Positions 15,254 to 64,000 of a DNA stretch of 64,000 bases are shown here, one piece after another. The position numbers were made by a program, and so were the translations under genes. The first letter of the stretch is position 1. Every line of letters starts with the position of its first letter. This DNA comes from Paraspadella gotoi (taxonomy: Eukaryota > Animalia > Chaetognatha), in the NCBI GenBank assembly GCA_051294375.1, contig CM119270.1:15747845-15811844 (forward strand), in the 5' to 3' direction. Under the pieces are notes generated by a model, which worked only from the letters and a program-made list of their open reading frames with translations, was not told the DNA's origin and ran no database searches.

Positions 15254-15495
15254 TTCTGTAGTTAGTTATTAAGTTTTATTGATCAGCGAATATAAATGAT
15301 TTTTTTTTAAATGTTTGAATGAAAAATATTTTATTTAACTGACTTAGATTTTGTAAAAAAAATGTTTTTTAAAAAAATATTGTAAAAAATCATTGCAACT
15401 TAGATGGTAACATTCGTGCAAAGTATCTACTAGCTCGTCTGAGAGATAATTTAACAATTGTTCCTTTTTATTTTCTGTATCCCATTTCAAGTTCA

Positions 15496-15825: not shown

Positions 15826-16014
15826 CTGAAAATGGTTATATCAATATTATCAGAAGACAAATTAACATGAAGAAATAATCATTGAGGATTAGAATGAAAG
15901 CTTACATATCATCGATATAATGATTATCCTTCAATAATTATGATTATACTAATATATATAAGTATTTTTATAATAATATAATGATTATCCTATTATAATA
16001 ATATATATAGATAT

Positions 16015-16082
16015 TATGAAATTGGTGCAACCAATATAAAAATCATCCATCCATTTAATAAATAAGCGATCTTGCCCCTGAA
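16015..16082 (+). repeat. Fragment of dispersed repeat family A
   Basis: aaattggtgcaaccaatataaaaatcatccatccatttaataaataagcgatcttgcccctga matches 46010-46075. Confidence 0.7.
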
Positions 16083-21231: not shown

Positions 21232-21994
21232 TTTGTTTTTTTGTTTTGTTTTTGTTTGGAGGGAGAGAAGAGTTTTCGTTATTAGTGGATGACTAGAGGG
21301 AGACTCTACCTCGAGTTTGGAATAGAGAGAGTGTGAGAGAGAGTATCAGAGGGAGACAGAGTCGATGGGATTCGCGAGTAGGGGCCGACGTCGGCGGCGA
21401 CGCGAGCGGCGTCGCCCGGGAGGCGAATGCGGCGTCGTCCAAATCATCACATTTCCTCGATGAGATATTTTTTTTTTGCTTTTGAGAAGAGGACGTCTGT
21501 GAATGAAGGTGGAAATTTGGGGGGGGGGGAGAGGGGAGGAAGATAGAATGAAGATTATCGTTTTCAAAACATCACGAGTAAAAAGATGACAATTTAGGTC
21601 TGAGGTTAGTAATTACTTGATAGTACGTTCTAAGCAGGTTTTAGGATCTTTTTTTTTTTACCTAACGGCGCAAAGGGTTTTTGCCAGAACGTTTTATTCC
21701 TTATTCTTAAACGAATTGCACTTCATCAATATAAGAAATATCCGATTACTAGCACCATTAAAACGAAAATTGTGGAGTAAAAAGCAATTCTAGGTATTTA
21801 CTACTATTGTTTTTTTTTTAGATTGTAACCCGACCCGGGTCACACTAAGCTTCCCCGCATTCTTTTAGGATCGAGTTAGATTTTCCTATCTTAGACTATG
21901 CGTATAACAGTAAGCGACAAATACTAAATTATTCAAAATTATGTGACTATATTTCTTATAATTATAGGATATGATTAAAATTATGCTCTAAAAT

Positions 21995-22100
21995 AATATC
22001 TTGTAAGAGAGATGGAGGCCTTAAACCACCAAAGCCTTCCCAAAGTCAAGGGCAAAATAGCTTATTTATAATTTTTATATTGGTTGTACCAATTTCATAA
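21995..22100 (-). repeat. Dispersed repeat family A, inverted copy
   Basis: Reverse complement reads aaattggtacaaccaatataaaaatt..aataagctattttgcccttgactttgggaaggctttggtggtttaaggcctccatctctcttacaagata, matching 46010-46125. Confidence 0.75.
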
Positions 22101-23647: not shown

Positions 23648-24389
23648 GAGAGAGAAAAAGAGAGTGGTGAATAGAAAAAGGGTATGTAGTAGCGGCTCAG
23701 TATGGTAGGAAAGAAAAAGGGGAAAAAAAGTAAAAAAAGAATTTCGAGATAGGGACGTTTAGATAAAAGGAAAGAAAGAAAATATATTAACTTCGTTGGG
23801 GGAGGGAGAGGTTGGGGAGGCGATACGGCAAACGGGGAGAGGAAGGATAAAATATATGGAGAAAGTAGATTGAGCTGCGGGGAGACGAAGTAGACAAGGA
23901 GAAAATGAGAAATAGACACGGGTGAAAGGGAGAAAGGACAATTGAACTTGCAAAGGGGGAAAAAGAAAAAAAAAATTAGTAGAGAAGAGGGCGAATATGG
24001 AAAGGGTTCACGGGAAGTGAAAAGAAGGGGGAGAAAAACAGAATCGAAACGTAAAACTTTTAAATGAAATAACGTTGGGCTAATTGCTCCGCTTTGACAA
24101 TGTAAGGCTTAATAAGAAATAGGCAATGGACTAATTGGGACAATCAATGTAAAAAAAATTATCCATTCACTTAATAAATAAGCTATCTTGCCCTATCTAT
24201 GCTATCTATCTATATAAAAAAGGATGATAGCTAATCGCAACGAATTTACTATTACTTTGTAAAAACTATAATCGCTGAAATACGTACGAAAAAAAAGAGA
24301 CTGAAATTTAAATTAAATTACAAGATCAGTTATCAACCTTGATTAAGGAAAAGATTTTTCCAAAACTTATAAACAAACAAGATAAAAAG

Positions 24390-28198: not shown

Positions 28199-28230
<32 letters not shown>

Positions 28231-28965
28231 CTCATCTCTCTCTCCTCTCTCTCCTCTCTCTCTCGTCATTTTCAACTTTCCAGCAGCCGCCGCTGCTCTC
28301 TGGGCTTCGTCCGACCGGTCGTTCATTCGAAAGGGGAAAGGGATGTAACAACGAAAACCGTTGAAGCGATGGTTTACTCGCGGACGGAAAACGTCGAACC
28401 GCGCGAGGAGAAAGTCATAGAAGCGAGAGAAAGGAGAAAGAGGGGAAAGAGAGGTAGAGATAGAGAAAGAAGAGACCGGTGGAACACAGGAAAAGAAAAC
28501 AGAAAAGACGAAAAAAGGGACAGTAAAGGGAGTTAGAAAGACAGTGATATAGTGAAAGCGACGGATGAGAAGAAAATACAGGGGGAAAAATAATTTTAAG
28601 AATTAGAAGAAAAAACGCAAAAATGAGACAGTGAAAGGTATGAGATAAAGTTTTTTTCACAGAGACAAATATAAAAGATATAGAAGAGATTTGAATGCTA
28701 TGTGTGGAAAAATAGAAAAAATGAATAAAGAAAAAAGAGAAAAATAAAAGAAAGAAGAAAAGAAAAGATAAGAAAGAAAAAGTAAAGAAAGAAAGAAAGA
28801 GAAAGAAACGAAGAAAAAGAAAAGAAAGAAAGAAAAGAAAGAAAATGAAAAGAAAGAAAGGACGTGGAAAGGAAAGAAAAGAGAAAGGGAAGATGGAAAG
28901 AGAGAGAGATAGTGAGAGAGAGTAAGACAAGACCGACAGAGATAGAAGAGAGAGAGAGAGAGAGT

Positions 28966-29040
<75 letters not shown>

Positions 29041-32000
29041 GGAGTATGAGGAGGTTGAGAGAGAGAGGATGTGCACGGAGAGACAGAAGAGTAGACAAGC
29101 GAGAGGGAGAGGAGGAACCGGCGGGCCCGCGCTTCTCTCTCTCTCAGTGTCCGGTAATTTTTCGCGCCGTCGTGGTTTCTTGCAGCATAAATTCATGACT
29201 GGCGTCACTGCGGCCTAACGCGGCGGAAACGTCTGCTGCTTATTTTCAGAAGAAGGCGTATGAACTTCTACTAGTTTGTCAATGGTTATAGAGAATTACG
29301 TATAACTGCACAAACGGATCCGCTTCTATAAGATCATGCGTTCTGTTCCCATTTTCTCGTTAATATACGTTTATCAATTTTTATAAGTATAATATAAAAT
29401 ATGATAAGCATTACGTTCGTTGAGAACGAATTAAATTCGAAAGTTGTGCCTCCAACTGAATCGAACGTGTCCGCAAACTTAACCGGATGACCCGTTCAAT
29501 GTTGCAAGCATAGGATGATAAATTAAGTATTTCTTGTAACTTACAACGCATCCATACAAACTTAATTTACAGAACTCTTTTAAAAATTTTTTTTTCTTTT
29601 TAAGGCCAATTTTATAACAATATTTAATTCCTTTTTTTTTTTAATAAATAAACGCAATAAGGTGATGAAATTAGTTACAAACAACATATTGAAAAGATAG
29701 ATTTTAAGTTTCCGATCAAATTAAAACAAATTCTATTTTTGTAAAACCTTATTGATACAAAATAAATTTTTATTTAAGTGATTTATTTGTTTTAACTTTC
29801 ATTTTATTCGGGTAAAAAAAAGGAACTTGTATGTAAATCAATATATACAATATTAAACCTTTATTTTATGCTAAATGCCCAGCCTCCACAAACAAACAGG
29901 TTTTTTAATATAATAACAAGTTTTGAAAATGTTAATTTATTTTCCTTTTCAACTTAAGTTAAAGATTTCACAGCTTTAAAGATTAAATATCCTATACCAA
30001 GTAGTTAATAATTAACATTTATATTCATCAGTAGCTTTTAATTCAAACGGTAAACAGACCTATTAATGTTTTCTTAAGACCTAAAACTTTAAGGTAAAAA
30101 AAAAATATTTCAAAAATAATGGTTATACAAACAACAATTATAATAATAATAATTATTAATAATAATAATTATTATTATTATAATAAATATATAAATAAAT
30201 AAATAATATAATATTAATAATAAATATAATATAAATTTAATAATAATAATAATAATAAATATAATTAATAATAATAAATAATAACACAAAATTTGGACTT
30301 TTCAGAAACAATCCACTTTGTTTCCCTACCCCTGCTCTCTCTCTCCTCGCCCTGTTTCCTTTCGCTTCGACGCGGTGCAAACTATAATCTTATTAACAAT
30401 TCCTTTGGATCTCCACCCAGAAGTATCACAGAAGCTCATTGGTCACACCGCCGTTTGGTCAACACGCTATTCCGCTTTCAGCCTCTCGAGTGAACGCCTA
30501 ATACTGAATTCCTTCATTCCTATTCGCTGCACGTCTCTAACAGAGGAAGACTCTCTCATAATGCTCGTCTCTCGTTGGCTAAAAGTTGTCTCCGCACGCT
30601 TTTTTCACTCGGTCTTTGGGCTCCAGCTGGTTCGTCACTGAGCCGAATTCTCATCCTGACATAAATTGCGACACGCTGACGTATTTTCGATAAGCTTCTC
30701 TGGTTGTCGATTCAAAGAAGAAAAGAAATCCTATTGGTGGAATGAAATAGTTTCAAAAGTACCGTGTTGTTTATCTTAAAGCATAGAGTGATGACTTAGC
30801 TAAAAATAATAGAAAAAATTGTAGTCCCAATCCTGAAGCGTATATGTTTTTGATAACTCTCAATTCTTTCAATTTTAGTTGGGTTCAAACATCGGTCATC
30901 ATAGGATTGGGTAATTGCTTACTTTTCAACGTTAATGCACGTTCCATTGAATCTTCGAATGCTTCACTTCTTTTAATTCTTATTTTTTAACTATTTTTAT
31001 TCTTGGCTGTTTTCTTGATTATACGGTATATGTTCAGAAGTATATAATCAGTGCTTGCTCGGGTGCCGCAATGTAACAAGAAATTGGATGATGGTTAGAT
31101 TGAAAAATTTACATCTTAAAAGGACCAACACTCCACACGCTTTTACCGTAAACGGATAAGCAGTTTGTTTATTAATTATGAAATTTTGCAAATTACTTGT
31201 TTCACTATTTTCTATTCTATATTTTATGAAGGATTTACTATTTAATCTATATTCTTTAAATAATATATGTATTGCTTTCCTTAATTTTTTTACTTATCAT
31301 TATATCTAATACTCATTTTGGGAGGAGAAGTCAGTGTTTGTCCTTCTGGAAAATAGCAGGGAGCATCCTATAACAACACAAGGTTAGATTTTACATTTCG
31401 TCCTCGTTTTCTATTAGATATCACACAAGCATTCGCTGTTAGAAAGTCATTAATGAAAATCACATAATATCTAATAGGCTGAAAAGAAAGGGTGGGAATG
31501 GATAAATTTTTTTGAAGGGGGGACCAAAGTGGATTTTTTTTACCATAGGGATAAGACTAACCAAGTAGAATCATATGTTTTGATAGGGATACATACTGGG
31601 GAAAGGTCTATAAGGGCAACCTTTATGTCATGAATATAATTTGTTTAAAATACTTCAATGAAAATTTTTTTTTCTTTATCCTATTTTAAATTATTTTAAT
31701 TTTTTGAAATATTTTTTCTCTTTGATGTTTATACAATGGGAAGGTCATAGTTGGGATCCTATATCCTTTTATGGATTTTCGGCTGCTTTATATTTACAGC
31801 TAAATTGTTGAAAGCATTCGATTTATAAAATTTAGAATCAATATAATTTGGAAAGAAAACGAAAAAAATATACATTAAATTTTTTTTTATGCTATGGAAT
31901 CAAGCTTAACAGAGTTACTTTTTTACACCAGTACAGAACCTTTCCACTCCATGAAAAAATGAACTTTAAAGGGAACAGAAAGGGTTTTTAACTTTGGAAG

Positions 32001-33342: not shown

Positions 33343-36068
33343 GAGAGAGGCTTCGATGAACAGGCCGCAGTGACTCGGAGGACGATCGTTCGATGCGGCA
33401 AATGGAAGCGAACTCAGCACAAGAAAGACATACATTCATATAATTAATTAATAATACTTATTCTGTTAATCAATATATATATTCAGTTTGATGAAGAATT
33501 TCCAAGGGGAAAGACAGGAGGAGCGGTCTCATCTACGTAGAAGCGCTCGCGTTGCTATGGAAACAACGACGCCAAAGGAACACAGAGAAGACGGATGCGA
33601 GGAAGAGGATGAAAAGGGTTGAGAAGAAGAGGATGAGGAAGAGGAAGAGGAGGAAAACGAAAGAGTTGATTGGTAGAGAGAGAATGAAGACGAGAAAAGA
33701 GTTGAAGGGAAGATGAGTGAATTGAGAGAGAAGGATGAAATAATAGAGAAAAAGGAAAAGGGAAAAGGCTGTGGAAGAGGAAAAGGGAAAAGAAAAAGGC
33801 TAAGGATTAAGGAGGAGGGAAAAGGAAAAAAGTGATAGGCAAAGGTTTGAGGAGGAAAAGGAAAATAGGAAAGGGAAATGGAAAAGGCAAATGGTTGAAG
33901 AAGAGGAAAATGGAAAGGGGAGAGGGAAATGGAAAAGGCAAATGGTTGAGGAAGAGGAAAATGGAAAAGATGAAATGAAAAGGCAAAGGGTTGAGGAAGA
34001 GGAAAATGAAAAATGTAAAATGAAAAGGCAAAGGGTTGAAGAAGAGGAAAATGGAAAGGGGAGAGGGAAATGGAAAAGGCAAATGATTGATGAGGAGGAA
34101 AATGGAAAATATAAAATGAAAAGGCAAAGAGTTGAGGAAGAGGAAAATTGAAAGGGGAGAGGGAAATGGAAAAGGCAAATGATTGAGGAAGAGGAAAATG
34201 GAAAAGATAAAATGAAAAAGCAAAAGGTTGAGGAAGAGGAAAATGGAAAGGGGAGAGGGAAAATGGAAAGGCAAATGGGTTGAGGAGGAAGAGGAAAATA
34301 GAAAAGATAAAAATGAAAAGGCAAAGGGTTGAGAAAGAGGAAAAAGGGTGGAATCAGGGGAGAGGGAAAGGAAAAGGCAATGGTAGAGGAAGAAGAGGAA
34401 ATAGAAATAGATTAAATGAACAAGGCAAAGTGTTGAGAAAGAGGAAAATGGAAAGGGGAGAGGGAAATGGAAAAGGCAAATGGTTGAGGAGGAGGAAAAT
34501 GGAAAGGGAAAATTGGAAAGGCAAAGGGTTGAGGAAGAGGAAAATGGAAAGGGGAAATTGGAAAGGGAAAGACTTAGACGGCAGGAAAATGAAAAAAAGG
34601 AAAATTGGTAGTGTTGAGAAAGAGGAGAAAAAGAATTTAAGACGGTGAGAAGGTGGAAAAGGGAAGGTTAAGAGAAGTAGAATGAAAACGTGGCGACGAG
34701 GAGCGAGAGAGATTTTAGACGAGGGGGAGGGGGAAAGGGGAGGAGAGAGAGGGATGAGGAGAGAAGGATGAAAGCGCGGGGAATCATAAAGAAGGAAACA
34801 GAGGAGGCGACAGAGGGGAAATCGTTGAGGGAGGTAGGACGAAAGGGTTGAGCGCTGAACAAGTTTGTTGTAGAAGAGGACGAAATAAAAAGAGTTTGAA
34901 ATAATTAATGGGAACGAAATTAAAAGAACTACAAATACGAATCTGCGAAAACGCGGAAGGTTTGAAGGGAAGAGAAAGAAGAAATTTGAAGAGGATAGAC
35001 TAGCTTGAAAGAAACGAAAGAATTTAAAGATTGAAAGTTGAGAGAACAAAACGGATAAGGAAAGGATGAAGAAGTTGCGAGGCGAAAGGTGGTAATTGGG
35101 AGAGTAGCAGGACGCAGATTGGTAGAGAGAGAGATCCTAGGAACGATGGAGTGTGGAAAGTCGGGTAGAATAAGGAGGGGGGGTATAATGCCGAGGGGGA
35201 AAAGGAGGAATGGAAGTTCCATGCCGACGGGTTGAAGGAAGCAAATGTCAACGATGGGCTCGAAAAAGTGATTGGAAAATGCGGAGGAGGGGATGGGTCA
35301 TTGGGCAGGCTATGGGTGGGTTGCGAGGAAAAGACTTATCTTTTAAATTGACTCGGATATATAACGACATTATAACGTTTTTATTCGATGTAATAATTAG
35401 GTAAACTAAAATTTTTGGCATCAGGAACTGATACAACGAGAGAAGTCGCAGAAAATTAGGTTGTAGAAGATTTCACTGTGCAAGCGGTTAAAAAAAAAAT
35501 CGGACGACGAAATACGGTTAGAAAAAAAACCTGTAATACATTCAATGACGTCAAGATATTTTTAATAAAAACAGAAATGGTATTTATCAATAAATGTAAG
35601 AAGAGAATAAAACACCCAAGAATAAGTCTTAAATATGATGAGATTATTATATTTCCAACAAATTAATAAGGAGGGAAGTGACAAAGATCAGAACGTCAGA
35701 AAAAAATGTTTAAAATATTTGTATGTTTGTCATAATTGAAATATCATGAAAAATATTTTAAAATACATCATCGAAAAAGCCTATTGCACAATGTCGCATT
35801 CAATTCGAAGCTTTCTATCTAGAAATTAAAGCTCAAATATTTTGTACACTTTACCTAATTTTGATTAATTCACGCATATGACTCGCAAAAAAAATTGATT
35901 GAGATCGAACTCATTTCGATGTAATATTTAAATAAAGTCCCCGAACCGCTAATTCGCTTATTTCATTCTTTCTCTCTCTCTATCTCTCTCTCTTTCCTCT
36001 TTCCCCCTTTTCTTCGACTCACCACCACCACCCCTTCCACCCTCCATCATCACTCCTAAGCACCAACC

Positions 36069-36130
<62 letters not shown>

Positions 36131-36596
36131 ATTTCAACTTTCCAGCAGCCGCCGCTGCTCTGCTTCGTCCGACCGGTCGTTCATTCGAAAGGGGAAAGGG
36201 ATGTAACAACGAAAACCGTTGAGCGATGGTTACTCGCGGACGGAAACGCGAACCGCGCGAGAGAAAGTCATAGAAGCGAGAGAAGGAGAAAGAGGGAAAG
36301 AGAGAGTGAGAGATAGAGAAAGAAAGAGACGGTGGAACACAGGAAAAGAAACAGAAAAAGACGAAAAAAAGGACAGTAAAAGGGAGTTAGAAAGACAGTG
36401 GATATAGGTGAAAGCGACGGATGAGAAGAAAATAAAGGGGGAAAAAATTTTAGAATTAGAAAGAAAGAACGCAAAATGAGACAGTGAAAGGTATGAGATA
36501 AAGTTTTTTCACAGAGACAAAATAAAGATATAGAAGAGATTGCTCTATGTTTGGGAAAAATAGAAAAAAATGAAATAAGAAAAAAGAGAAAAATAA

Positions 36597-36676
<80 letters not shown>

Positions 36677-36800
36677 AAAAAAGAAAGAAAGAAAGAAAGA
36701 AAAATGAAAGAAAGAAAGGACGTGGAAAGGAAAGAAAAAGAGAAAGGGAGATGGAAAGAGAGAGAGATAGTGAGAGAGAGTAAGACAGACCGACAGAGAT

Positions 36801-36853
<53 letters not shown>

Positions 36854-39800
36854 GGGAGTATGAGGAGGTTGAGAGAGAGAGGATGTGACGGAGAGACAGA
36901 GAGTGAGACAGCGAGAGGGAGAGGAGGAACCGCGGCCGCGCTTCTCTCTCTCGGTCGGTATTTTTCGCCGCTGGTTTCTGCAGCATAAATTCATGCTGCG
37001 TCACTGCGCCTGCGCGGCGGAACGCTGCTCCTTATTTTGCAGAAGAAGGCGTATGACTTCTACTAGTTTGTCATGGTTATAGAGATTACGTATAACTGCA
37101 CAAACGGATCCGCTTCTATAAGTCATCGTTCTGTTCCCATTTCTCGTTAATATAGTATTATCAATATAAGTATAATATAAAATATGATAAGCATTAGTTC
37201 GTTGAGAAACGAATTAATTCGAAGTTGTGCTCCCAACTGAATCGAACGTGTCCGCAACTTAACCGGATGACCGTTGCAATGTTGCAAGCATAGGATGATA
37301 AATTAAGTATTTTGTAACTTTACAACGCATCATACAAACTTATTTACAGAACTCTTTTAAAATTTTTTTTTCTTTTTAAGCCAATTTTATAACAATATTT
37401 AATCTTTTTTTTTTAATAAATAAACGCAATAGGTATGAAATTGTTACAACTAATTTGAAAGATAATTTTACAGTTCCGATCAAATTAAAACAAATTCTAT
37501 TTTTGTAAACCTTATTGATACAAAATAAATTTATTTTAAGTGATTTATTTGTTTTACTTTATTTTATCGGGTAAAAAAAGGAATTGTATGTAAATCATAT
37601 ATACAATATTAACCTTTATTTTATGCTAATTGCCAGCCTCCACAAACAAACAGGTTTTTAAATATAAACAATTTTAAAATGTTAATTTATTTTCTTTCAA
37701 CTTAGATTAAAGATTTCAGCTTTAAAAGATTAAAATATCCTATTACCAAGTAGTTAATAATTACATTTATATTCATCAGTAGCTTTAATTCAAACGGTAA
37801 ACAGACCTATATGTTTTCTTAACTAAACTTTAAGGTAAAAAAAAAATTATTTCAAAAATAATGGTATAAACAACAATTATAATAATAATAATTATTATAA
37901 TAATAATTATTATTATTATAATAAATATATAAATAAATAATAAATATAATATTAATAATAAATATAATAATAAATTTAATAATAATAATAATAATAAATA
38001 TATTAATAATAATAATAATAACACAAAATTTGACTTTTCAGAAAACAATCCACTTTGTTTCCCTACCCCTCTCTCTCTCTCCTCGCCCTGTTCCTTTCCC
38101 TTCGACGCGGTGCACACTTACTCTTATTAACAATTCTTTGGATCTCCACCCAGAAGTATCACAGAAGCTCATTGGTCACCATCCGCCGTTTGTCAACACG
38201 CTATTCGCTTTCAAGCCTCTCGAGTTGAACGCCTAATACTGAATTCCTTCATTCCTATTCGCTGCCCGTCTCTAACAGAGGAAGACTCTCTCAAATGCTC
38301 GTCTCTCGTTGGCTGAAGTTGTCTCCGCACGCTTTTCATCGGTCTTTGGGCTCCACTGGTTCGTCACTGAGCCGAATTCTCATCCTGACATAAATTGCGA
38401 CACGCTGACGTATTTTGCGAAAGCTTCTCTGGTTGGTCGATTCAAAGAAAGAAAAGAAATCCTATTGGTGGGAATGAAATAGTTCAGTCACCGTGTTGTT
38501 CTCTAAACATGAGTGATGACTAGCTAAAAATAATAGAAAAAATTGTAGTCCAATCCTGAAGCGTATATGTTTTGAACTCTCAATTCTTCAATTTTAGTTG
38601 GTTCAAACATCGGTCAATCATAGGATTGGGTAATTGCTTACTTTCAACGTTAATGCACGTTACCATTAATCTTCGAATCGCTTCACTTCTTTTTAATTCT
38701 TATTTTTAACTTTTTTATTCTTGCTGTTTTCTTGATTATACGGTATATGTTCAGAGTACTATAAAATCAGTCGTTGCTCGGGTGCCGCAATGTACAGAAA
38801 TTGGATGATGTTAGATTGAAAAATTTACATCTTAAAGGACCACACTCCACACGCTTTTACCGTAAACGGATAAGCAGTTTTGTTTATTAATTATGAAAAT
38901 TTGCAAATTACTTGTTTCACTATTTTCTATTTCTATATTTTATGAAGGATTTACTATTTAATCTATATTCTTTAAATATATATGTATTGCTTTCTTAAAT
39001 TTTTTTACTTATCATTATATCTAATAACTCATTTTGGGAAGGAGAAGTCAGTGTTGTCTTCTGGAAATAGAGGGAGCATCTATACAACACAAGGTTAGAT
39101 TACATTTCGTCCTCGTTTTCTAATAGATATCACACAACATTCCTGTTAGAAAGTCATTAATGAAAAATCATAATATCTAATAGGCTGAAAAGAAAGGGGT
39201 GGGAATGGATAATTTTTTGAGAGGGGACCAAAGTTGATTTTTTTTACCAATAGGGATAAGACTACCAAGTAGAATCATATGTTCTGATAGGGATACATAC
39301 TGGGGAAAGGTCTATAGGGGCACCTTTATGTCATGAATATAATTTGAAAATACTTCAATGAAAATTTTTTTTTCTTTATCCTATTTTTTAATTATTTTAT
39401 TTTTGAATATTTTTCTCTTTGATGTTTATACAATGGGAAGGTCATCAGTTGGGATCCTATACCCTTTATGGATTTCGGCTCTTTATATTACAGCTAAATT
39501 GTTGAAACATTCGATTATAAATTTAGAATCAATATAATTTGGAAAGAAAACGAAAAAAATATTACATTAATTTTTTTTTATGCTATGGATCAAGCTTAAC
39601 AGAGTTACTTTTTTACACCAGTACAGGAACCTTTCCACTCATGAAAAAATGAACTTTAAGGGAACAGAAAGTTTTTACTTTGGAAGATCGGAAACCCTAG
39701 AAATTCATTAGAAAACGACCGTTGGCGTCCAATTCGATCACTTTGTAGAAAATAACCAAATAAAAAAAAAGATTCATAAAAATCATAATTATAATCAAAT

Positions 39801-45127: not shown

Positions 45128-46815
45128 CAACATCATAACAACTGGTGCAGTTGTCTTGAAAAAGCTTTTTTGTAACATTTTACCATCTTATTTTATGCTT
45201 CAATTTTAAACTCGTTGTGAAAAAAATTTGAGGCGAATAATTTAAATTTTTTTACATTTATTAGTTAGTTTATTGTCTCGGAGGCCTGGAAAAAAATTCT
45301 TATTAATATATATCAGGGTTCAGTGAGGCAATAAGCTTTTTACAGATCATTGTTCTTTTCTTCTTTTTTTTCAATGCTGAAATTTTTATTTTTTTATAAA
45401 TTTTAACTAGAAAAACTATAAAATGAAAAAAGGTGATTTTGTGGTTGTGAAAAAGTTTTTGAAATTCCAATTGCTCAGACACATACTCGAATGTCTATAT
45501 TTCTAAGATAAACTCAAATTTTTTTGACATTACATTTTTTAATAGAAATAATATATCTTCAAATGCAAGAATTTTTCTCAAATCCGGCATTGATAGGCAC
45601 ATAACTATTAACTAAGAAAGTAAGCAAGCTGGATAATTGGGAGTTGAAAAGGAAAAAAAGTCAGCAATTTTACTAGGGTAAAAAATATGAAGTAGCCATA
45701 ACTTGTGATTTATTCCCATTCGAAATCTTTATATATTTCCTTTTTTTCTTTCTTTTGATTTTTCTCCTTCCGCACCCGAGCACCTTACCCTTCCTTGTAG
45801 CACCATCTGTATCCAACACGGTTGCTTCCCAAAGTCTTGATGTTGCACTTTCCCATCACCTCGGGTTTTTCAGAGCAACTGGTGCATTCCATGTCGAGAC
45901 ACTTTACTCCTTTCGCCGTGTATTCTCCGCCCCATTCGTCACGAAGGCCCTGGTGAGGGACGCGCCAATTCCGTTTTCCTACTGGTAAATTAAAATAAAT
46001 ATATATATCAAATTAGTACAACCAATATAAAATTTATCCATTCATTTAATAACTAAGCTATCTTTCCCCTGACTTTGGACAGGCTGTGATGGGTTAAGGA
46101 CTCCATCACTCTTACAAGATAATAACATAGCACATACAGTATGGCCCAATGGTACTCTCCGTTAAGAAAAGCTTACTGCTCCTACCATATAGAAAACTTC
46201 AAATAATAAAATTTAAATATTAAATTAATTAGCATATTTTTTTCAATTTTTATATTTTTTTAAATATTTGTTTATTTCTTTTAATTAATGAACTTATTTT
46301 ATACAATTAAAATTTAAATAATTTATATCTATGTAAAATATTTTTTACGTAATTTTTTGAATAAAATATCTAAAAATTTAAAAAATGAGAAATGAGGACA
46401 CATTTAAATTGAAATGAAATGAAATTTAACAACATAGTTCCGCACGATATGTAGAAGTTAAATTGTAAAAGTCTCTAATCTTTTAATAAAGAGTTTGGTT
46501 TCTCTATCAATCCAATCGTTTAATGATTTTAAAGAAAAGTTTCAATTGTAAATGAAATATTCTTTCTCCGACGATGCAAAAAGTTTAAAGGGACAAGTAA
46601 GAATTTCGATAACCACTACTTTTTACCTTTTAGCCAATTATTTTTGTATATATACACTTTATCAAATGATTATTGTAAACCAATTAATAAAAGAAATAAA
46701 GAATTGAGTATCGAGATTAAAGTTAAACTTCCTCCTTACATAATATGCTATCTCCTGGGGTCGCGGCGACGATGACGGCGACGATCAGCAGAACGAAAGA
46801 AAAAGTCGACGACAT
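44771..46815 (-). CDS. Small secreted 10-Cys protein (137 aa); exons 46815-46740, 45981-45789, 44915-44771
   Basis: Spliced product MSSTFSFVLLIVAVIVAATPGDSILLGKRNWRVPHQGLRDEWGGEYTAKGVKCLDMECTSCSEKPEVMGKCNIKTLGSNRVGYRWCYKEGGGWDYCCSTTSVCGTNGKPERGNWCWTDSKVPGNHDGNWDYCDPKYN*. Both introns are GTAAGG..CAG with matching phases; signal-peptide-like N-terminus. Confidence 0.85.
46010..46135 (+). repeat. Dispersed repeat family A, longest copy (intronic)
   Basis: Matches ~16015-16082, 21995-22100 (inverted), ~24155-24195, ~55185-55255 and ~62695-62820. Confidence 0.75.
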
Positions 46816-48565
46816 TTTGAAATTCGGTTGGGTTTAATATTTTTTCTTTAACCCCAGAATCTCTTAAATACTTTTCTATCTTCGTCTTGTTTGTTGACAT
46901 TTGACTCAAGCTTATTCCCAGGGACAAAGTCTAAGATAATATTTTCCAAACAATTGTCCGAGGTGATTTTTAATTTTACCAGTAGAAATAGGAATAAAGC
47001 CTGTCAATAGGGTTGTCAAATTTATTAAGGGAGAATTTGAGGAACAACGCTTATTTTGTTCAAAATTTTTAGATTTTGCTGGAAAGTTGTCGGGAGAAAA
47101 ATGTTTATTTAACAATAAATTGAAGCCAAATCAGGCTAGCTCATATTAAACTTTTTTTAATGTTAGTATAGTAGTACATATGTTGTTAGTTGGAAAAAAC
47201 TACTATCATAATCTCTTTTGAACTAGATCGCGGAGCTGACTACTTGTGCCCTACTTTTTTGCGCCCTCCGTGTCCGACAAGCAGCAGCAGCTGAGCCTAG
47301 GAGCCCACAAAACACAACAAACAAAGCAAACGAGATATATATATATATATATAACAAACAAATAAATCCCAGTACTCGAATTTATAATTTAAAAACCAGG
47401 TTTTCAGATCCTGAATTGGTGACCTTCCTAAGAGTAAATCTGAAACTTTAAGTTAAAGCAAGGTCAAGGTCAATGCTACCGATCCAAGTTTTAAGCTTCG
47501 TTTCAGCTTCTCCGATGTGTAATTAATAAAAACTAAACAATTGTCTGTATTTTGCAATCTACGTAGACTAAAGATTATCGAATATAGATTGAAAAAAGTT
47601 TTACTATTCTTTATTAAGACCGAATACTGTGATTTCATACAATGACGATGAATAGTTACTAGTTCCAATTCCTATTTTCTAGAAATAATAAACAGGCGAA
47701 GGCGATAATCATAACAAATTTACGATTTTACTTACAAAACAATGAATCACATTTTGAGAATGCTCAATTCGTAAGCGTGGAAATGTTTATAGTTCAGGTG
47801 ATTATTTAATAACATTTGAAATAAATTTTCAGTTCCACAATTATACTCAAAATACGCAAGTTTTGCTTGTATTTCAACTTTCATATTTGAATATCTGAAT
47901 TCATAAATAATACTAAACTTTAACAGCCAAAGCAAAACTATATATTTCTATTGGAGACAAGACGATCCCAGCGCCAACCTTCACATCACAGCATTCAGAC
48001 GTTTTCACAACCACCGCGGATTCAGCCTTCGATTCACGATTTCGTGACCTCACAAAACCGAAAGATCGATTCTTGAGAAACGAAGAAACGATTCGCCAAC
48101 AGAGGGACGATCTGGCTCCTCTAATTCATCCTCTTATTCTCACTTCTTCTTCTTCCCCTGTTTCCTCTTTGTATCCTTCTTGCTTCTCCTTCTCCGTATT
48201 AGAACACAAGTCACACGATGCGGTGTTGACTGTTTTCTTTTAGCAGTCAAAACGAATCCTTGAAGATTTCGCTATTTCGCTTTTTCGTTTGCGACCAGTT
48301 TTACACAAGTGTTAATTAATCTCAGAGATTAAGGTTTGTCCACGGAATTCCTGCTTTTACTTCGTTTATTACACACACCCAGAGCCGAGAAAAGTTCGAA
48401 ACAGGTTTGAGCTCTCTCTCGATTTGGCAAACGACTTTTTTTCAGTATAATCAAAGACAATTTTTACAAGAACCAAATTTTCAAAAAACTGAGCACATCC
48501 GAAAAAAAAACACTGTGTGCGCCGATATAACCTACCTAAACCTTTACAAAAAAAAACAAAATGGC

Positions 48566-52000: not shown

Positions 52001-52870
52001 GTTTTAATAATATTAATATTTTTTTGTATTTATAAAAGCAATGGTTTAAAATTTTGTAAGCGTTTCGAGCTATATTGCTTCATCTTTTTACTATTTTTGA
52101 TCTAGTTAGCTTTTTGTTGATGGTCAAGGGTTATGGTCAGATACAGTAATGTCCAGTAGTGTATATCGCACATATTACCAAAAGTAATGATCAATTAATT
52201 TGGCTCAGAAACAATTTTAAAGGGATAAAATCAGCACGAGACCGTTTCGCCACGTTATTTTTCATTGTGTCATAAAGAGTTATAACTTTTTCTATTCTAG
52301 GTAGGAATCCTTCAACTTCAATAGTTTTGACGCGACATTTCCAATTATCCTCTATGGTGGACTAAAATCCACCAACCGTTCATCAGCGGCCATTGGTGCC
52401 GGAGGCAAGTCATTCGCCTCCCAACCCAAAGGTCCGGGGTTCTAGCCCGGTGGCCTCCTGGCAGTTAAGAGGGACGGGGCGCTTAACCCGCCTGTAACAT
52501 GGTGTTACAGCCTGATCCGAAGCTCAGGGACTGCTTATATTGAACGGTTCTGTCACTAACACATAACAATTATCACTGTCTTTTCACCTCCATCTTTTTT
52601 TCCTTCCCCCCCCACGCGTACTACAGTTGCAAAAAGGTAAAAAGCTACATGACTTCCGCTCACGTCTCTTCCTCGCTGAAGAAAATCTTCGGGGCGAGAA
52701 AGAGCGTCTTCGAATCTTCCTGCCCAACGAGGGCGACGCTTTTCAAGCAACCGAAGAAGGCCGAGTGCTGCACCAAGTCTCTCTGCAATTCGGCGGAGGG
52801 AAAGAGCGCCGGAATCTTCAGAAACGGCGTCATCGTCGCCGTGGGCGTCGTCGTCGCCAAGTTTTTGTGA
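49013..52870 (+). CDS. Ly6/uPAR three-finger protein, probably GPI-anchored; exons 49013-49148, 49439-49571, 52627-52870
   Basis: Signal peptide MSFATKTRILTAIVVVLTTIICAEA, then ECYQC..SC..TC..FC..RTC..IC..ECCTKSLCN and a hydrophobic C-terminal tail. Phase-1 and phase-2 GT-AG introns join in frame. Confidence 0.88.
49265..49360 (-). mobile_element. 5'-truncated, degenerate relative of the twister-bearing SINE-like element
   Basis: Minus strand UAA-CCGC-GCC-[agugau/gucacu hairpin]-G-AGGG-UCGGAUGC-GCCC, then a 3' hairpin guugcccc..gggcauc resembling the 55624-55645 hairpin. Confidence 0.5.
49757..49860. mobile_element. Degenerate inverted copy of the TTAGGG-core MITE
   Basis: CCCTAA-like core (aaccctaac, ttaaccctaatccc) ending in ggcgcaagtaaaaat. 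Confidence 0.45.
52386..52575 (+). mobile_element. tRNA-derived SINE-like element (in intron 2 of the Ly6 gene)
   Basis: A box TGGTGCCGGAGG 52394-52405; B box GGTTCTAGCCC 52438-52448; acceptor-like stem ggccat/gtggcc; tRNA-Gly-like middle (ttcgcctcccaa); not a clean cloverleaf. Confidence 0.7.
52460..52535 (+). ncRNA. Twister ribozyme-like fold, type P5 permutation; predicted cleavage U52484/A52485
   Basis: P5 GGCAGUU/GACUGCU; GA-CG-G; short P1 loop; UAA; P2 CCC with G(A)GG; GCC; P3 CUGUAACA/UGUUACAG; P4 CCUGA/UCAGG; L4 UCCGAAGC; T1 pairs CG with CG. Confidence 0.75.
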
Positions 52871-53335
52871 TTCTCCGTTGCTGGCAATACATTGTACAGA
52901 CTACAAAAGTGATCTTTTCTAAAATGTTCCGAATCATTTTTTTTTTTAAAGCCATTGTGGTTGATATTTCGGTAGAGTTTTAGAACGTATGTATTTGTTC
53001 TGTCTCTATGATGTTTTTTTTTTTACCATTTTTTTTTTGGCCGTTGTTTTTTACTTTTTCCCCACTCAGGAATTGAAGGTATTACGCGTCATATACGGTC
53101 TCTAGTTGATAAAAAGTTTGAAACTGCCTGAAAGCAAATTGAGAAATAAAAGTTTTGTCAATATTTTGGTTAAGTCACATTCCACGCCTTTCAAGGTTTC
53201 GTCAATGTACAGTTTATTTATATGCAGTTGAAATCATTTTTTCTTGTCGCAACTTTGACTTTGGTTTAGCTTTTACATATAAATTATTTAAAGTCATTAA
53301 AGACATTACTATCGTCACAATCAAAAAAAGATCGA

Positions 53336-54070
53336 TCATTTATTTTGGAGCTTTGCTTTTACGTAAGTAATGTAATACTTCATATTAGATTTGCACGCTC
53401 GCTTTCCTGACAGAAGCCTTACATCTTGTATAAAAACTGCAAAAGACTTTGTTAGTATTTCCAGTCCAAAGTTTTTAAAACTATCTGAATGTAATCAAAA
53501 TATACATAACAAAGAATAAATTATCCAATGTTTAAACATGATTTTTCAATGTAAACAAAGTATCACAGTATCAATTGCAAAGTATTATGCAACTTATTTA
53601 GATAGAATATAAATCCGGGGGAGATTTAGTATCTTTAACAATTTTTCTAGGAAATTTTGTAAGATTCTCCAATCTCCATTTTCCAAATATTATTCTATCG
53701 ATCGAATAAATTGTTTTGGCAACAAAGAATTAAGTGCAAATTGTAGGTAATATGGTTGCAACGCGATTGGTGTCAACATTTCTGAAAGAAACTTTGCTAA
53801 GGCACTTGAATTTTTATTAAATGCATCAATTTTAGATGCTATAATTAATACATATATGTAATATTAAAGATATGAAAAACCAAGAATCAAAGCTCTGAAA
53901 TATTTTTCACAATACAATAGAGTATAGACGAGAAATGAGGTAACAGAGTTACATTGGAGATAAAAGGCGAAAATGATAACTTTAGTTATATCTACAAAAT
54001 GAAGCCGATACGCATGACCAAGACATGATATAATTAAAAAAATACTTATTAAACCAATATTTATTTTCAT
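53336..54070 (-). CDS. Candidate small secreted orphan protein (multi-exon, AT-rich)
   Basis: MKINIGLISIFLIISCLGHA signal-peptide-like start; internal coding-like stretch (~53830-53590) with one in-frame TAA; terminal exon cattcag|53484-53336 open to TGA. Donor sites not firmly identified. Confidence 0.3.
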
Positions 54071-54471
54071 AACGAAATCACGAAGGGAATGCATGGAAGT
54101 ATGATTGTTCGTTCCCAGGCCATCGAAATCCTAGGTCAAGCTTAATGTCTCGTCGATCGGCTTTTGCCAACCGATTGCGGGGAAAAAATCCTTCCGAGTC
54201 TCTAGATCAAAGAAAAGCATTAAATTTAATTTTAATTCTTTTATTTAATTACAATTTTTTATTGATTTTTTAACGAAACCTTAATCTGATATAATCTTTA
54301 AGCATTTATTTAAGTTAAAAACAAATTTAATTTTAAATTTTGATAGAGGGAGCTTTCGGAAAAGATGGCCCAAAGGCTCCGGCTCCTTTTCGACATTTGT
54401 GAAGAGATTTGAGTACAACACCTCCAAGGTAGCCGGTACGGGGAACCCCTACATAGCCGATCGGCCGTGGG

Positions 54472-56447
54472 CTAGAGCAGTTCGACGATGAAGTAGGAAA
54501 GGCCCGCGCCGACGCCGAGGCCCGCAGCCAAGAAGAAGGCCATCAAGGAGCCGGCCATTTCGGCCGAAGAGTCGACGACCCGTTTGGGGCCGAACATCAT
54601 CGCCAAGGAGGCGAGGTAACCGTTGGTGAGGGAGAAGACGGACTGTTTGAGAAGGGTGGAGTGGGGGATTGAGTTGGAAGGGTGAGTTTGATGGTTGAGA
54701 GAGAGTGAGAGACTAGCCGTTCCACTTTTCTACGTCCACAAGCCACAATTTTCCACCGAATCCCGCCACAACTCACCACAAATGCGATCGGGTAAGCGTC
54801 GTGAGTGAAGGCCGTCCACAATCGCCTTGTCTCCGCCGTCTGCACGTTGCACAGCATGAAGGCGGGAACGAAGCCGACCCTGACGCAGCAGAGCAGCGGC
54901 AGCAGCCAGCGCGGGCTGAGGGCGTGGGGGAACTGGATGCGCCCGGCCAGGGAGCGGCCCAACATGTCGCCGAAGTTGAAGAGAAAGAAGCAGAAGACGG
55001 GGGTGAAGAACTTGACGTACGGGTTGTCGTCGGAGGATGGGGTGTCGTCGGAGGTAGTGGTGGAGATGGGGCGGATGAGGACCAGCACTCCGGGGAACAC
55101 ACTGGTTGTGATTTGAAGGTGAGTGAATAAAAATGAGGGAAACTCATTTTATAAGTAAAAAGGAGATAAAGACGCATAATACCTACTATCTTGCACCTGA
55201 CTTTAGACAGGCTTTGGTGTGGTTGTTTAAGGCCTTCATCACACTTACAAGAAACTTACACAAGAAAGTTACAGGACCCTCCAAGCTTTCAATCAAAACG
55301 GTTCAACGTTTTTCTTTTTTCACCCTTTGTCAGCAACCGGTTTAGATGACACCGGAATACTCACGTGAGAGTGATGACAAAAGTGATGAAGACGGAGAAG
55401 GCTTCAGGAGCGATGCTGCAGAAGAAAGAGGAGAAAACTTGTGTTGGACAGCGACCGCAAAGTCGAATATCTCAAATGAGATACTGCTACATCATATCCC
55501 CGACATCGGCGTTCTTTAAACCCTTTCACAACATCACGGCTACTCAGGTCTCACTTACCCGCTCCATCATTGTTATGATCAAATCAAAAAATCAATCACT
55601 TATAGCAAGGGGGAGACATGATTGATGCCCGGGGTATGAGGCATCTCCCGACAGCTGGCGCTCAGGGCTTTGGACCGGCAGTGACCACCCCATGTCACTG
55701 GCGTGTTTATGCCTACACCATCACAACCTAAAGAGCGTGACAGTAAGGGGATTGAACCCGGAACTCACGGTTGGAGAACGAGTTCTTAGCTGTCCAAGCC
55801 AATGAGTTTCACCAAGCTATATGGAGGCGAATTTAGGATTCGCCACACACTAATACGATCACAAAATGATCATTTCACCCACTCCCTTCACCCCCTGCCC
55901 CTTACCCAATCCTAACTTACTTTTTCAACAAATTCCTAAGCCGATCCAACTTCATGCTCCTCTTCTTTTGCTCCTGCGAGACGTAGCCCGACTCCCCAAC
56001 TCCTCTTCCACTTTCTCCTTCCTCCCCTCCGGTCAACAACCCCTCCTCCTCCTCCTCCACCGACTCTTCCGCCTCCACCTCTTCCTCTTCCTCCCTGATC
56101 AGGCCGTACTTCCTTCCCCTCTCCCTCCTCCTCCTCTTCCTCCTCAGCCGGGGACTTCGGCTTCTCTCCACGGCGAAGACGAGGTAGTTTGACCGCAGCG
56201 CCGCCCACGCCGCTCCCGCCGCAGCCGTCATCACGGCGGCGGCGACGACGAAGTAGCCGAAGGTGGCGTAGCGGATCTTGGCGGGAGTGTCGCCGATGGC
56301 GAGGGTGGCGATGGCGGCGAGGGCGGCGACGGGCCGCCTATGGGAGGGGAGTGGAGGAATAAATAAATAAATAATATAAAATGAGTATAAATAAATAATA
56401 ATAAATAAATAAATAAATAAATAAAATAAATAAATAAATAAATAATA

Positions 56448-61970: not shown

Positions 61971-64000
61971 CAGTGAGGGCAATAAGCTTTTTTACAGGAT
62001 AATTGGGTTTCTTTTCTTCTTTTTTTTCAATGGCTGAAATTTTTTATATTTTTTTAAAAATAAAATTTTAACCTAGAAAAAACTAATTAAAAAAAAAAAA
62101 TGAAAAAAGGGTGATTTTGGTGGTGCTGAAAAAGTTTTTTGAAATTCCAATTGCTCAGAACACATACTCGAATGTCTATATTTCTAAATAAACTCAATTT
62201 TTTTGACTAACTTACATTTTTTTAAAATAGGAAAAATTATCCTCAAATGCCAAGAATTTTTCTCAAATCGCGGCATTGATAGGCACATAACTATTAACTA
62301 AGGAAAGTAAGCAATGCTGGATACATTGGGAGTTGAAAAGAAAAAAAGTCCAGAAATTACTAAGGGTAAAAAATATGAAGTAGCCATAACTTGTGATTTT
62401 ATTCGCATTCGAAATCTTTATAATTTCCTTTTTTTCTTTCTTTTGATTTGCTCCCTTCCGCAACACGAGCACCTTACCTTCTTGTAGCACCATCTGTATC
62501 CAAACACGGTTGCTTCCCAAAGTCTTGATGTGCACTTCCTATCACCCTCGGCGTTTTTCAGAGCAAACTGGAGGTGCATTCCTGTCGAGACACTTACTCC
62601 CTTTCGCCGTGTATTCTCTCCCGCCCATTCGTCACGAAGCCTGTGAGGACGCGCCCGATTCGTTTTCATATGTAAATAAAATAAATATATATACAAATTA
62701 GTACACACCAATCCTATGAAAATTTATCCATTCATTTAAATAACTAAGCTAATTCTTTCCCCTGATTTGGACAGGCTGTGATGGTAAGGACTCATCACCT
62801 TACAGATATAACATAGCACAATACGTAGCCAATGGACTCTGCCGTTAAGAAAGCTTAACTGCTCTACCATATAGAAAAACTTCAACATAATAAAAATTTA
62901 AATATTAAATTAATTAGCAATTTTTTTCAATTTTTATATTTTTAAATAATTGTTTATTTCTTTAATTAAATGAACTTATTTTATAGCAATTAAAATTTAA
63001 ATTAATTTATATCTTGAAAATATTTTTACGTAATTTTTTGAATAAAATATCTTAAAAATTTAAATAAAAAATGACAAATGAGGCACACATTTAAATTGAA
63101 ATGAAATGAACTTTAACACATAGTGTCCGCACGATATGTTCGGAAGTTAAATTTGTAAAACAAAAAGTCTACTAATAATAATAAATAAAAGAGTTTGGTA
63201 CTCTATCATCCAATCAGATCATAATATTTTAAAGAAAGTTCAAATTGTAAATGAAATATCTTTCCCGACGATGCAAAAGTTTAAAGGGACAAGTAAGATT
63301 TCGATAACCACCTACTTTTTACTTCTAGCCATGTATTCTTTGTATATAGGTTTACATTTATCAAATGATATATCTGTTAAACCAAATATAAAAGAAAAAT
63401 AAAGAATTGAGTATCGAGATTAAAGTTAAACTTCCTCTTACATAATATGCATCTCCTGGGGTCGCGGCGACGAATGACGGCGGACGACAGCAGGAACGAA
63501 AGAAAAAGTCGACGACATTTTGAAATTCGGTTGGGTTTTAATATTATTTTCTTTAACCCCAGAATCTCTAAATACTTTTCTACTTTCGTCTTGTTTGTTG
63601 AAATTTGACTCAAGCTTATTCCAGGACATAACGTCTAAGATAATAATTTTCCCAAACAAATTGTCGAGGTGATTTTTTAATTTTACCAGTAGAATAGGAA
63701 ATAGCTGGTCAATAGGGTTGTCAAATTTATTAAGGGAGAATTTGAGGACAACGTTATTTTTGTTCAAATTTTTAGATTTTGGCGGAAAGTTGTCTCGGGA
63801 GAAAAAATGTTTATTTAAACATAAATTGAAGCCAATCAGGCTTATGCTCATATAAACTTTTTTAATGTTAGTATAGTAGTACATATGTTGTTAGTTGGAA
63901 AAAACTACTATCATAAATTCTTTTGAACAGATCGCGAACTGACTAACTTGTGCCCTACTTTTTGCGCCCCCCGTGTCCGACAAGCAGCAATAGCAGCTGA
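61971..64000 (+). repeat. Duplicate of 45321-47294 (runs to the window end)
   Basis: Colinear from cagtgagg(g)caataagc to gcagctga, with dense small indels. Confidence 0.93.
62478..63518 (-). pseudogene. Frameshifted second copy of exons 1-2 of the secreted 10-Cys gene (pseudogene or low-quality haplotig)
   Basis: MSSTFSFV.. at 63518 and IKTLGSNRV../GYRWCYK fragments in different frames; exon 3 is not present in this copy. Confidence 0.6.

What the first reader, a model, noticed from the sequence alone, without database searches (positions are those of the whole stretch)
52386..55810. tRNA-headed SINE-like elements that each carry a circularly permuted (type P5) twister ribozyme
Seen: two elements (52386-52575 +, 55810-55605 -) have Pol III A/B boxes followed within ~12 nt by the same ordered layout: P5 - P2' - GA-NN-G - tiny P1 - UAA - P2 - GCC - P3 hairpin - G - P4 - UCCNAAGC loop - P4' - P5'. 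Their stem sequences differ almost completely, yet pairing is largely kept. T1 covaries: loop UCCG with GA-CG in one and loop UCCA with GA-UG in the other, versus UCCC with GA-GG in the rice Osa-1-4 twister as I recall it. Established: twister ribozymes occur as P1/P3/P5 permutations and cleave at U^A using a conserved G and A; animal twisters are known in non-LTR retrotransposons; a tRNA head plus hammerhead is known in schistosome Sm-alpha. Inference: a Pol III-driven, self-cleaving retroelement/ncRNA family that cuts its tRNA head from its 3' body. I do not recall a described tRNA-head + P5-twister SINE, but I cannot verify novelty.
Basis: partly seen in the sequence, partly recalled or inferred. 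Interest (0 to 1): 0.92.

Follow-up and report, generated by a model that had tools for sequence, protein, structure and literature searches.

The report
Twister ribozyme in tRNA-bearing solo LTRs
Two very common repeats in this animal genome each carry a tRNA-like segment followed by a twister-ribozyme-like fold and sit between 4-base target duplications, so they are likely leftover end repeats of tiny LTR retrotransposons rather than SINEs, and their RNA is predicted to cut itself, a pairing I did not find described.

Summary
The observation largely holds. Both elements have a tRNA-like segment followed by a type-P5 twister-like layout with compensatory changes. Rfam's P5 model scores neither, and P1 is only a 6-8-base linker.

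The SINE reading fails. Contigs of public runs show high-copy families. e1 has sharp ends at 52353 and 52586, starting 33 bases before the tRNA-like part; e2 spans about 55847-55601. Both are flanked by exact 4-bp duplications (2 of 2) and have TA..CA and TG..TA ends. This fits solo LTRs of Helenus-type non-autonomous LTR retrotransposons (Kojima 2024), for which no ribozyme was reported. Two published wasp Helenus LTRs carry, by my reading, an unmentioned hammerhead at the same place.

Best model: likely a Pol III-driven animal LTR retrozyme, in which cuts in both LTRs would free a unit RNA that circularises. The self-complementary linkers suggest that pairing of two copies boosts cutting. 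Cleavage, Pol III use, circles and a two-LTR form are untested.

The scan noted P1-less P5 twisters in Naiad elements, and Helenus elements, on other DNA; my look-ups found no note with both together.

The parts
52353..52586 (+). e1: 234-bp solo-LTR-like element (ends TA..CA), member of a very high-copy family
   Evidence: Loose ends at 52353 and 52586 in 196 and 163 contigs of run X3, 96 and 78 of X5, 32 and 37 of X9; summed depth 4.2 million against about 220 on unique DNA in X3
52349..52352 (+). e1 left 4-bp target-site duplication
   Evidence: identical to 52587-52590
52587..52590 (+). e1 right 4-bp target-site duplication
   Evidence: chance about 0.8-0.9% at fixed ends
52355..52374 (+). 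e1 5'-terminal 7-bp hairpin; e2 has a 6-bp hairpin with a similar loop and different stem
52374..52382 (+). e1 5' arm of a perfect 9-bp stem that closes the tRNA-like and twister domains (3' arm 52541-52549)
   Evidence: (1 of 5000 shuffles as stable)
52386..52458 (+). e1 tRNA-like segment with A-box-like and B-box (GGTTC 52438-52442) motifs; likely Pol III promoter
   Evidence: acceptor stem 6/7 pairs
52460..52535 (+). e1 type-P5 twister-like fold; predicted general base G52473, self-complementary linker 52478-52483, predicted cut 52484/52485, L4 52516-52523
52581..52584 (+). T4 run two bases before the end of e1 (possible Pol III terminator)
55601..55847 (-). e2: about 247-bp solo-LTR-like element (ends TG..TA, 8-bp terminal pairing with 3 G.T), second family; sense strand in an intron of a nucleoside-transporter gene
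   Evidence: Outermost ends of the longest contig pieces (less sharp than e1)
55848..55851 (-). e2 upstream 4-bp target-site duplication
   Evidence: identical to 55597-55600
55597..55600 (-). e2 downstream 4-bp target-site duplication
55739..55808 (-). e2 tRNA-like segment with A-box-like and B-box (55758-55754) motifs
   Evidence: the relaxed ARAGORN call here is at noise level (175 calls in the window)
55655..55737 (-). e2 type-P5 twister-like fold; predicted general base G55722, predicted cut 55709/55708, L4 55674-55667; this copy is decayed in P4, P5 and the linker
21994..22099 (+). Family B: headless repeat with the same twister-like layout, no P3 hairpin, palindromic linker, T2 pair swapped to A-U
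46006..46124 (-). Family B copy (duplicated at about 62689-62828, minus strand)
55173..55260 (-). Family B copy in the same intron as e2

Best explanation
e1 and e2 are members of two high-copy repeat families, each made of a tRNA-like segment followed by a twister-like fold between 4-bp duplications; they are likely solo LTRs of Helenus-like non-coding LTR retrotransposons whose RNA would be made by Pol III and is predicted to cut itself.

Shown: family abundance, ends, duplications, fold and compensatory changes. Inferred, by analogy with plant LTR retrozymes: in a full LTR-internal-LTR element Pol III starts at the tRNA-like segment of the first LTR. The twister cuts at U^A in both LTRs and leaves a unit RNA with 5'-OH and cyclic-phosphate ends, which a host ligase closes into a circle. 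The reverse transcriptase and integrase of a Gypsy-type partner copy and insert it, giving 4-bp duplications; recombination or short cDNAs leave solo LTRs. The self-complementary P1 linker would let two copies pair and swap halves, so two-LTR RNAs would cut better than lone copies inside host pre-mRNA.
For: Ends noted before the duplications were looked for (notes), then exact 4-bp duplications in 2 of 2 elements, about 0.8% chance each. Animal Helenus has 4-bp TSDs, tRNA-like LTRs and common solo LTRs (PMC10886601). Several of its consensus LTRs start with TA or end with TA. Plant LTR retrozymes have 4-bp TSDs, ribozymes in LTRs, solo LTRs and circles (PMC4918200).

Three families in the window keep pairing with different letters at T1, T2, P2 and P4. 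Where these copies break or weaken a pair, most family depth in X3 carries a pairing letter: 52456 (98%), 55677 (98%), 52460 (60%). Linkers are fully self-complementary in e1 and in 2 of 3 family B copies; about 4-5% of random 6-mers are. The e2 family linker reads self-complementary with G.U pairs in most copies (55714 differs in 94% of X3 depth). As a hairpin the e1 linker costs +5.6 kcal/mol, as a duplex it gives -8.3. Palindrome-capped dimeric hammerheads are the precedent (PMC4209133, PMC7229834). Helenus-2_SyJa and Helenus-2_SyUm LTRs carry, by eye, a type III hammerhead just after the tRNA-like part.
Against: No two-LTR element, PBS or PPT was seen. Loose-end consensuses at e1's ends are diverse AT-rich DNA (agreement 0.40-0.46), and no genome was available. 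Neither element has exact TG..CA ends, and e1 has no terminal inverted repeat. e2's ends rest on single long contigs. There are only two TSD cases. Rfam Twister-P5 gives no hit, whereas 11 of 13 phage loci fetched by a P5 pattern pass it, and the 10 parsed have P1 regions of 14-30 bases. e1 has A-U for the near-invariant G-C closing P4, and its P2 has 2 stacked pairs plus one beyond a bulge. The loose descriptor alone is at chance level. Twisters can cut without P1, 'almost wild-type' in PMC5408937 and 'inefficient' in PMC8501958, so dimer gating may be unnecessary. The e2 copy's own linker pairs poorly (-2.1 kcal/mol), and 1 of 3 family B linkers is 4/6. A T4 run at the end of e1 could stop Pol III inside the first LTR.
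Confidence: 0.55

Rival explanations
1. The elements are dispersed monomers of a non-LTR, SINE-like retrozyme: a Pol III head plus twister as in schistosome Sm-alpha, moved by a Penelope-like (Naiad) or LINE partner from tandem arrays or circles.
For: Promoter-plus-hammerhead SINE-like repeats exist in Schistosoma (PMC6765202). Animal retrozymes are tied to Penelope-like elements and occur as monomers (bioRxiv 2026.07.22.740005). Family B has 5'-truncated copies and TA-rich flanks, as Naiad insertions do (PMC8557442). Circular permutation could also carry sequence upstream of the promoter.
Against: Exact 4-bp duplications and fixed ends unrelated to the cut site or the promoter start. No tail and no duplication of 7 bp or more at the ends. 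None of the 15 joints shown (of 101) is a head-to-tail join. No reverse-transcriptase match in 57 ORFs screened beyond position 15300 or in 8 others.
Confidence: 0.2
2. The fold descends from a twister but no longer cuts, or cuts too slowly to matter; the families spread as ordinary Helenus-type elements.
For: No Rfam hit; e1 departs from a near-invariant pair; P1 is nearly absent; these copies carry mismatches. Most published Helenus LTRs I read show no such insert.
Against: Catalytic-core letters are kept while stems change in step across three diverged families. Family majority letters pair where these copies do not.
Confidence: 0.15
3. The carrier is a DNA element (a miniature cut-and-paste transposon with 4-bp duplications, or a Helentron-type rolling-circle element) that picked up a tRNA-twister cassette.
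For: Fixed ends, a 5'-terminal hairpin in both families and an asymmetric internal inverted repeat in e1. Features of these element types are recalled, not tested.
Against: No long terminal inverted repeats. Rolling-circle elements leave no duplication (recalled), but both copies have one. A DNA element needs neither promoter nor ribozyme.
Confidence: 0.1

Closest known systems
Helenus (TRIMp3) non-autonomous LTR retrotransposons, Kojima 2024, PMC10886601 (read: parts 1-4 of 6 of the text; supplement parts 1 and 5-9 of 11 by eye, whole file by motif search)
   Same: tRNA-like segment with GGTTC B box inside a short LTR (the longest reported is 323 bp); 4-bp TSD in animals; solo LTRs; thousands of copies; a T-run near the LTR end
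   Different: The paper reports no ribozyme in Helenus, and no twister L4 motif in a twister context was found in its consensus file. Here about 75 bases of twister-like fold follow the tRNA-like part. The internal region was not seen.
Plant LTR retrozymes, Cervera et al. 2016, PMC4918200 (passages)
   Same: Self-cleaving motif in the LTR, 4-bp TSD, solo LTRs, no coding capacity
   Different: Plant elements use type III hammerheads and I saw no tRNA-like promoter in the passages read; here animal, twister-like and tRNA-like; circles untested
Type-P5 twister ribozyme, Rfam RF02684 (consensus seen; review PMC5408937, passages; Roth et al. 2014 not read)
   Same: Strand order, L1 and L4 core letters, T1 and T2 pseudoknots, P2 and P4
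   Different: 6-8-base self-complementary linker instead of a long P1 hairpin; P3 and P5 present; A-U closing P4 in e1; below the model's threshold
Schistosome Sm-alpha SINE-like hammerhead repeats (through review PMC6765202, passages and section 11 part 1) and Perere-3 twister variants (PMC8501958, passages and section 17)
   Same: Pol III-type promoter followed by a ribozyme; twister in an animal retroelement
   Different: Sm-alpha uses a hammerhead in tandem repeats; Perere-3 has a P1-type twister at the 5' end of a LINE; neither is LTR-like
Dimer-dependent minimal hammerheads of Penelope-like elements and amphibian retrozymes (PMC4209133, PMC7229834; passages)
   Same: Weak helix next to the cut site capped by a palindrome
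   Different: Hammerhead rather than twister; dimer action was shown there and is only predicted here

Membership tests
Twister-P5 (RF02684) | Reaches the family's gathering score (37.6 bits) | tested here: not met
   controls 11 of 13 phage loci pass
Twister ribozyme class | Pseudoknots T1 (3 pairs) and T2 (2 pairs) | tested here: met
   e1 and e2 3/3 and 2/2; family B T1 3/3 in 2 of 3 copies, T2 2/2 in 3 of 3
Twister ribozyme class | Conserved core: GA of L1, U^AA, U..AA of L4 | tested here: met
   against consensus lines and the table
Twister ribozyme class | Near-invariant G-C pair closing P4 | tested here: inconclusive
   Met in e2 and 2 of 3 family B copies; A-U in e1 (PMC5408937)
Twister ribozyme class | Stem P1 | tested here: inconclusive
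   Only 1-2 pairs possible within one copy; 6 pairs between two e1 copies; P1 reported dispensable
Twister ribozyme class | Self-cleavage at U^A dependent on the conserved G | not testable with these tools
   needs an in vitro assay
Helenus (TRIMp3) | tRNA-like segment with GGTTC B box and TRGCY/YGG A box in the LTR | tested here: met
   B box in both; A box fits in e2, only the YGG half in e1
Helenus (TRIMp3) | 4-bp TSD (animal families) | tested here: met
   2 of 2
Helenus (TRIMp3) | TG..CA LTR termini | tested here: inconclusive
   TA..CA and TG..TA, one transition away each; TA variants occur in published consensuses
Helenus (TRIMp3) | Two LTRs around an internal part with PBS and PPT | not tested
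   No genome held; one search shows no common loose end but collapses repeats
tRNA-derived SINE | 5' end at the tRNA-derived head | tested here: not met
   Shared 5' end 33 to about 40 bases upstream
tRNA-derived SINE | A-rich or simple-repeat tail and long variable TSD | tested here: not met
   Sharp 3' end, no tail, no duplication of 7 bp or more at the ends
LTR retrozyme | Hammerhead ribozyme in each LTR | tested here: not met
   The motif is twister-like; no hammerhead hit
LTR retrozyme | Unit-length linear and circular RNAs in vivo | not testable with these tools
   Only contigs were available

The most novel reading that the evidence does not exclude
Animals have Pol III-driven LTR retrozymes: Helenus-type elements that captured a self-cleaving ribozyme behind their tRNA-like promoter at least twice (a twister here, a type III hammerhead in Synergus wasps), copy themselves through RNA circles, and use a twister that works as a swapped dimer so that lone copies in host genes stay mostly uncut.
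Probability: 0.35. Interest if true: 0.87.

Novelty: new variant of a known kind. Interest (0 to 1): 0.72.

Why it matters
LTR retrozymes are described mainly from plants and with hammerheads; animal retrozymes are described as non-LTR. A twister in a tRNA-bearing LTR would join Helenus and retrozymes into one life cycle and offer a route by which a Pol III-made TRIM RNA is processed for reverse transcription. It would give eukaryotic twisters a second concrete job, and a natural dimer-gated twister would be a new regulatory form with a simple bench test. It also warns that Rfam's twister models miss a form present in thousands of copies.

Tried and rejected
Rfam on the whole window and on each element: no twister at threshold. 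No whole genome was held. Minimum-energy z-scores of the twister parts were uninformative (-0.06 to -1.56). Relaxed ARAGORN is noisy (175, 25 and 6 calls in the window at three cut-offs), so the tRNA types (Gly, Trp) are not claimed.

Pattern scans for other copies: an e1-specific pattern gave 0 in metagenome contigs; a general pattern gave 19 loci that show no P2/P4 pairing by eye and match the roughly 24 expected by chance on my estimate; one viral pattern gave 0. No RNA holder was on record. Run X9 is a guessed RNA run whose contig skips two introns of the transporter gene, but contigs cannot show RNA ends or levels, so expression is not claimed. Run X10 (another organism) laid nothing on the elements, which is no proof of absence. 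No reads were laid on e1's wider flanks, so the empty-site test and finer covariation within the families remain open. No covariance model was built, because MAFFT misaligned the five cores. The closing stem I first drew for e2 (7 of 5000 shuffles) competes with the family's P5 and is not relied on. One linker coordinate (family B, 22 kb copy) was off by one; that energy is not used. The host was not identified: nearest USP53/54 relatives are 61-64% identical and spread over arthropods and amphioxus (proteins of 644-2000 residues only).

Nine literature searches listed no paper on a twister in a tRNA-bearing LTR or SINE. Repbase, Dfam, SINEBase and most subscription papers could not be searched. 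The supplement lists of PMC8501958 and the bioRxiv supplements were not seen.
Full report
Setting. The window is animal DNA with a USP53/54-like gene and a nucleoside-transporter (ENT) gene on the minus strand. The nearest USP53/54 relatives are 61-64% identical and scattered over phyla, so the host was left unidentified. No whole genome was held. e2 lies on the sense strand of an ENT intron (55920-55102 by its GT and AG ends). e1 lies on the opposite strand just past the end of a spliced ENT contig.

The observation. Both elements are there. Pair by pair, e1 has T1 3/3, T2 2/2, P3 8/8, P4 5/5 and P5 6/6; e2 has T1 3/3, T2 2/2, P3 7/7, P4 3/4 and P2 3/4. The predicted general base and cut are G52473 and 52484/52485, and G55722 and 55709/55708. 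The heads are homologous (0 of 2000 shuffles) and hold the window's only two B-box-pattern hits. Against this, Rfam finds no twister at threshold; e2 alone reaches 17.1 bits (E 0.4) on twister-P1. Of 13 phage loci fetched with a P5 pattern, 11 pass RF02684, and the 10 parsed have P1 regions of 14-30 bases, where these elements have a 6-8-base linker. A loose descriptor recovers 10 of the 13 controls and both elements but also hits shuffled windows 1.14 times on average. With a B box upstream, 31 of 1000 shuffles have one or more hits and 1 of 1000 has two. Two other descriptor versions each found one element only, at 0.033 and 0.48 chance hits per window. The descriptors were post hoc.

A third family. 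The window holds four further twister-like copies without a tRNA-like head (21994+, 46124-, its duplicate near 62800-, 55260-) and two 5'-truncated pieces (16084-, 24194-). They lack the P3 hairpin and carry A-U at the T2 position where e1 and e2 carry G-C. Across the three families T1, T2, P2 and P4 change letters but keep pairing while the core stays fixed. This, not any single score, is the main reason to take the fold as twister-derived.

What the carrier is. Contigs of four public runs were laid on 52300-55900. Summed depth in X3 is 4.2 million over e1 and about 0.3 million over e2, against about 220 on unique DNA; the tool warns this is no copy number, but it shows highly repeated families. 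e1's family has sharp ends at 52353 and 52586 (196 and 163 contigs in X3) with unrelated AT-rich flanks. The longest pieces put e2 at 55847-55601, less sharply. I noted these ends before looking for duplications (notes). Both elements then proved to sit between exact 4-bp duplications, each with about 0.8% chance at fixed ends, with termini TA..CA and TG..TA; e2's termini pair over 8 bases, e1's do not. A SINE should start at its head and end in a tail; these start 33 to about 40 bases upstream, with a terminal hairpin, and have no tail and no duplication of 7 bp or more at the ends. The pattern matches solo LTRs of Helenus, TRIMs with tRNA-like LTRs and 4-bp TSDs in animals (PMC10886601). The defining two-LTR form with PBS and PPT was not tested, so I call them Helenus-like.

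Selection on structure. Where these copies break or weaken a pair, most family depth in X3 has a pairing letter: 52456 (98%), 55677 (98%), 52460 (60%) (40 rows shown, 65 not shown). e2's P5 region differs from most of its family, so this copy is decayed. No compensating partner was shown for the 13% variant at 52519 in T1.

Mechanism. Shown: ends, duplications, abundance, fold. Inferred from plant LTR retrozymes (PMC4918200): cuts in both LTRs give a unit RNA without a terminal repeat, a host ligase circularises it, and a partner's reverse transcriptase and integrase copy it back; Kojima links animal Helenus to Gypsy. The P1 linker is fully self-complementary in e1 and in 2 of 3 family B copies, and in most e2-family copies with G.U pairs; about 4-5% of random 6-mers are. 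For e1 the hairpin costs +5.6 kcal/mol and the duplex gives -8.3. Two copies could therefore swap halves, as palindrome-capped hammerheads do (PMC4209133, PMC7229834). I noted this idea before reading a scan note that proposes it for a clam Naiad twister; that note is not independent support. Twisters can also cut without P1, nearly at full rate in one account (PMC5408937) and inefficiently in another (PMC8501958), so gating is the weakest step. e1's A-U in place of the near-invariant P4-closing G-C, and its short P2, may lower activity. A T4 run at e1's end could stop Pol III within the first LTR; many published Helenus LTRs have a similar run.

A parallel in print data. In Kojima's consensus file, Helenus-2_SyJa-LTR and Helenus-2_SyUm-LTR carry, about 15-20 bases after the tRNA-like part, what I read by eye as a type III hammerhead: a GUC triplet, a 7-bp helix I, the CUGAUGA core, a 4-bp helix II, GAAA, a 6-bp helix III and complementary loops 1 and 2. 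The paper's text does not mention it. I did not run it through a program. Twelve twister-loop motifs found no twister context in that file (line breaks can hide matches).

Novelty and verdict. Nine literature searches listed no twister in a tRNA-bearing LTR or SINE; repeat databases could not be searched. The scan's notes hold P1-less P5 twisters in Naiad elements and many Helenus elements, but none with all the words of the combined searches and no look-alike sequence. Verdict: a real feature and a new variant joining two known kinds. My odds are about 0.9 that the fold is twister-derived, 0.75 that family members cleave, and 0.7 that the carriers are solo LTRs; 0.55 for the best explanation as a whole; interest 0.72.

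Noticed in passing
PMC10886601 supplement DataS1: Helenus-2_SyJa-LTR and Helenus-2_SyUm-LTR: An apparent type III hammerhead ribozyme with complementary loops follows the tRNA-like segment; the paper's text does not mention it. Read by eye only.
   Followed up: partly
window 21994-22099 (+), 46006-46124 (-), 62689-62828 (-), 55173-55260 (-), 16014-16084 (-), 24134-24194 (-): Family B: AT-rich headless repeat with a P3-less P5 twister-like fold, 5'-truncated copies and TA-rich flanks; no duplication of 7 bp or more at its ends. It may derive from Naiad terminal repeats and could be the source of the ribozyme; untested.
   Followed up: partly
window 52623 (run X9, record 23): The spliced ENT contig leaves the reference at 52623 with 626 letters unplaced, which may mark an allele without e1.
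   Followed up: no
window 52374-52382 with 52541-52549: A perfect 9-bp stem closes e1's tRNA-like and twister domains; role unknown.
   Followed up: partly
window about 45900-47200 vs 62600-63900, and about 25700-31300 vs 33600-39000: Long near-duplicates that differ mostly by small insertions and deletions, as in uncollapsed noisy long-read assembly or allelic duplicates.
   Followed up: no
window 1551-4784 and 5415-7496 (+): USP53/54-like gene with very long open frames (1077 and 693 codons).
   Followed up: partly
window 10166-14494 (+): A 1442-codon open frame made of about 29 ephrin-receptor-like cysteine-rich repeats.
   Followed up: no
window 19635-20615 (-): SERTA-motif gene split over two frames.
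   Followed up: no
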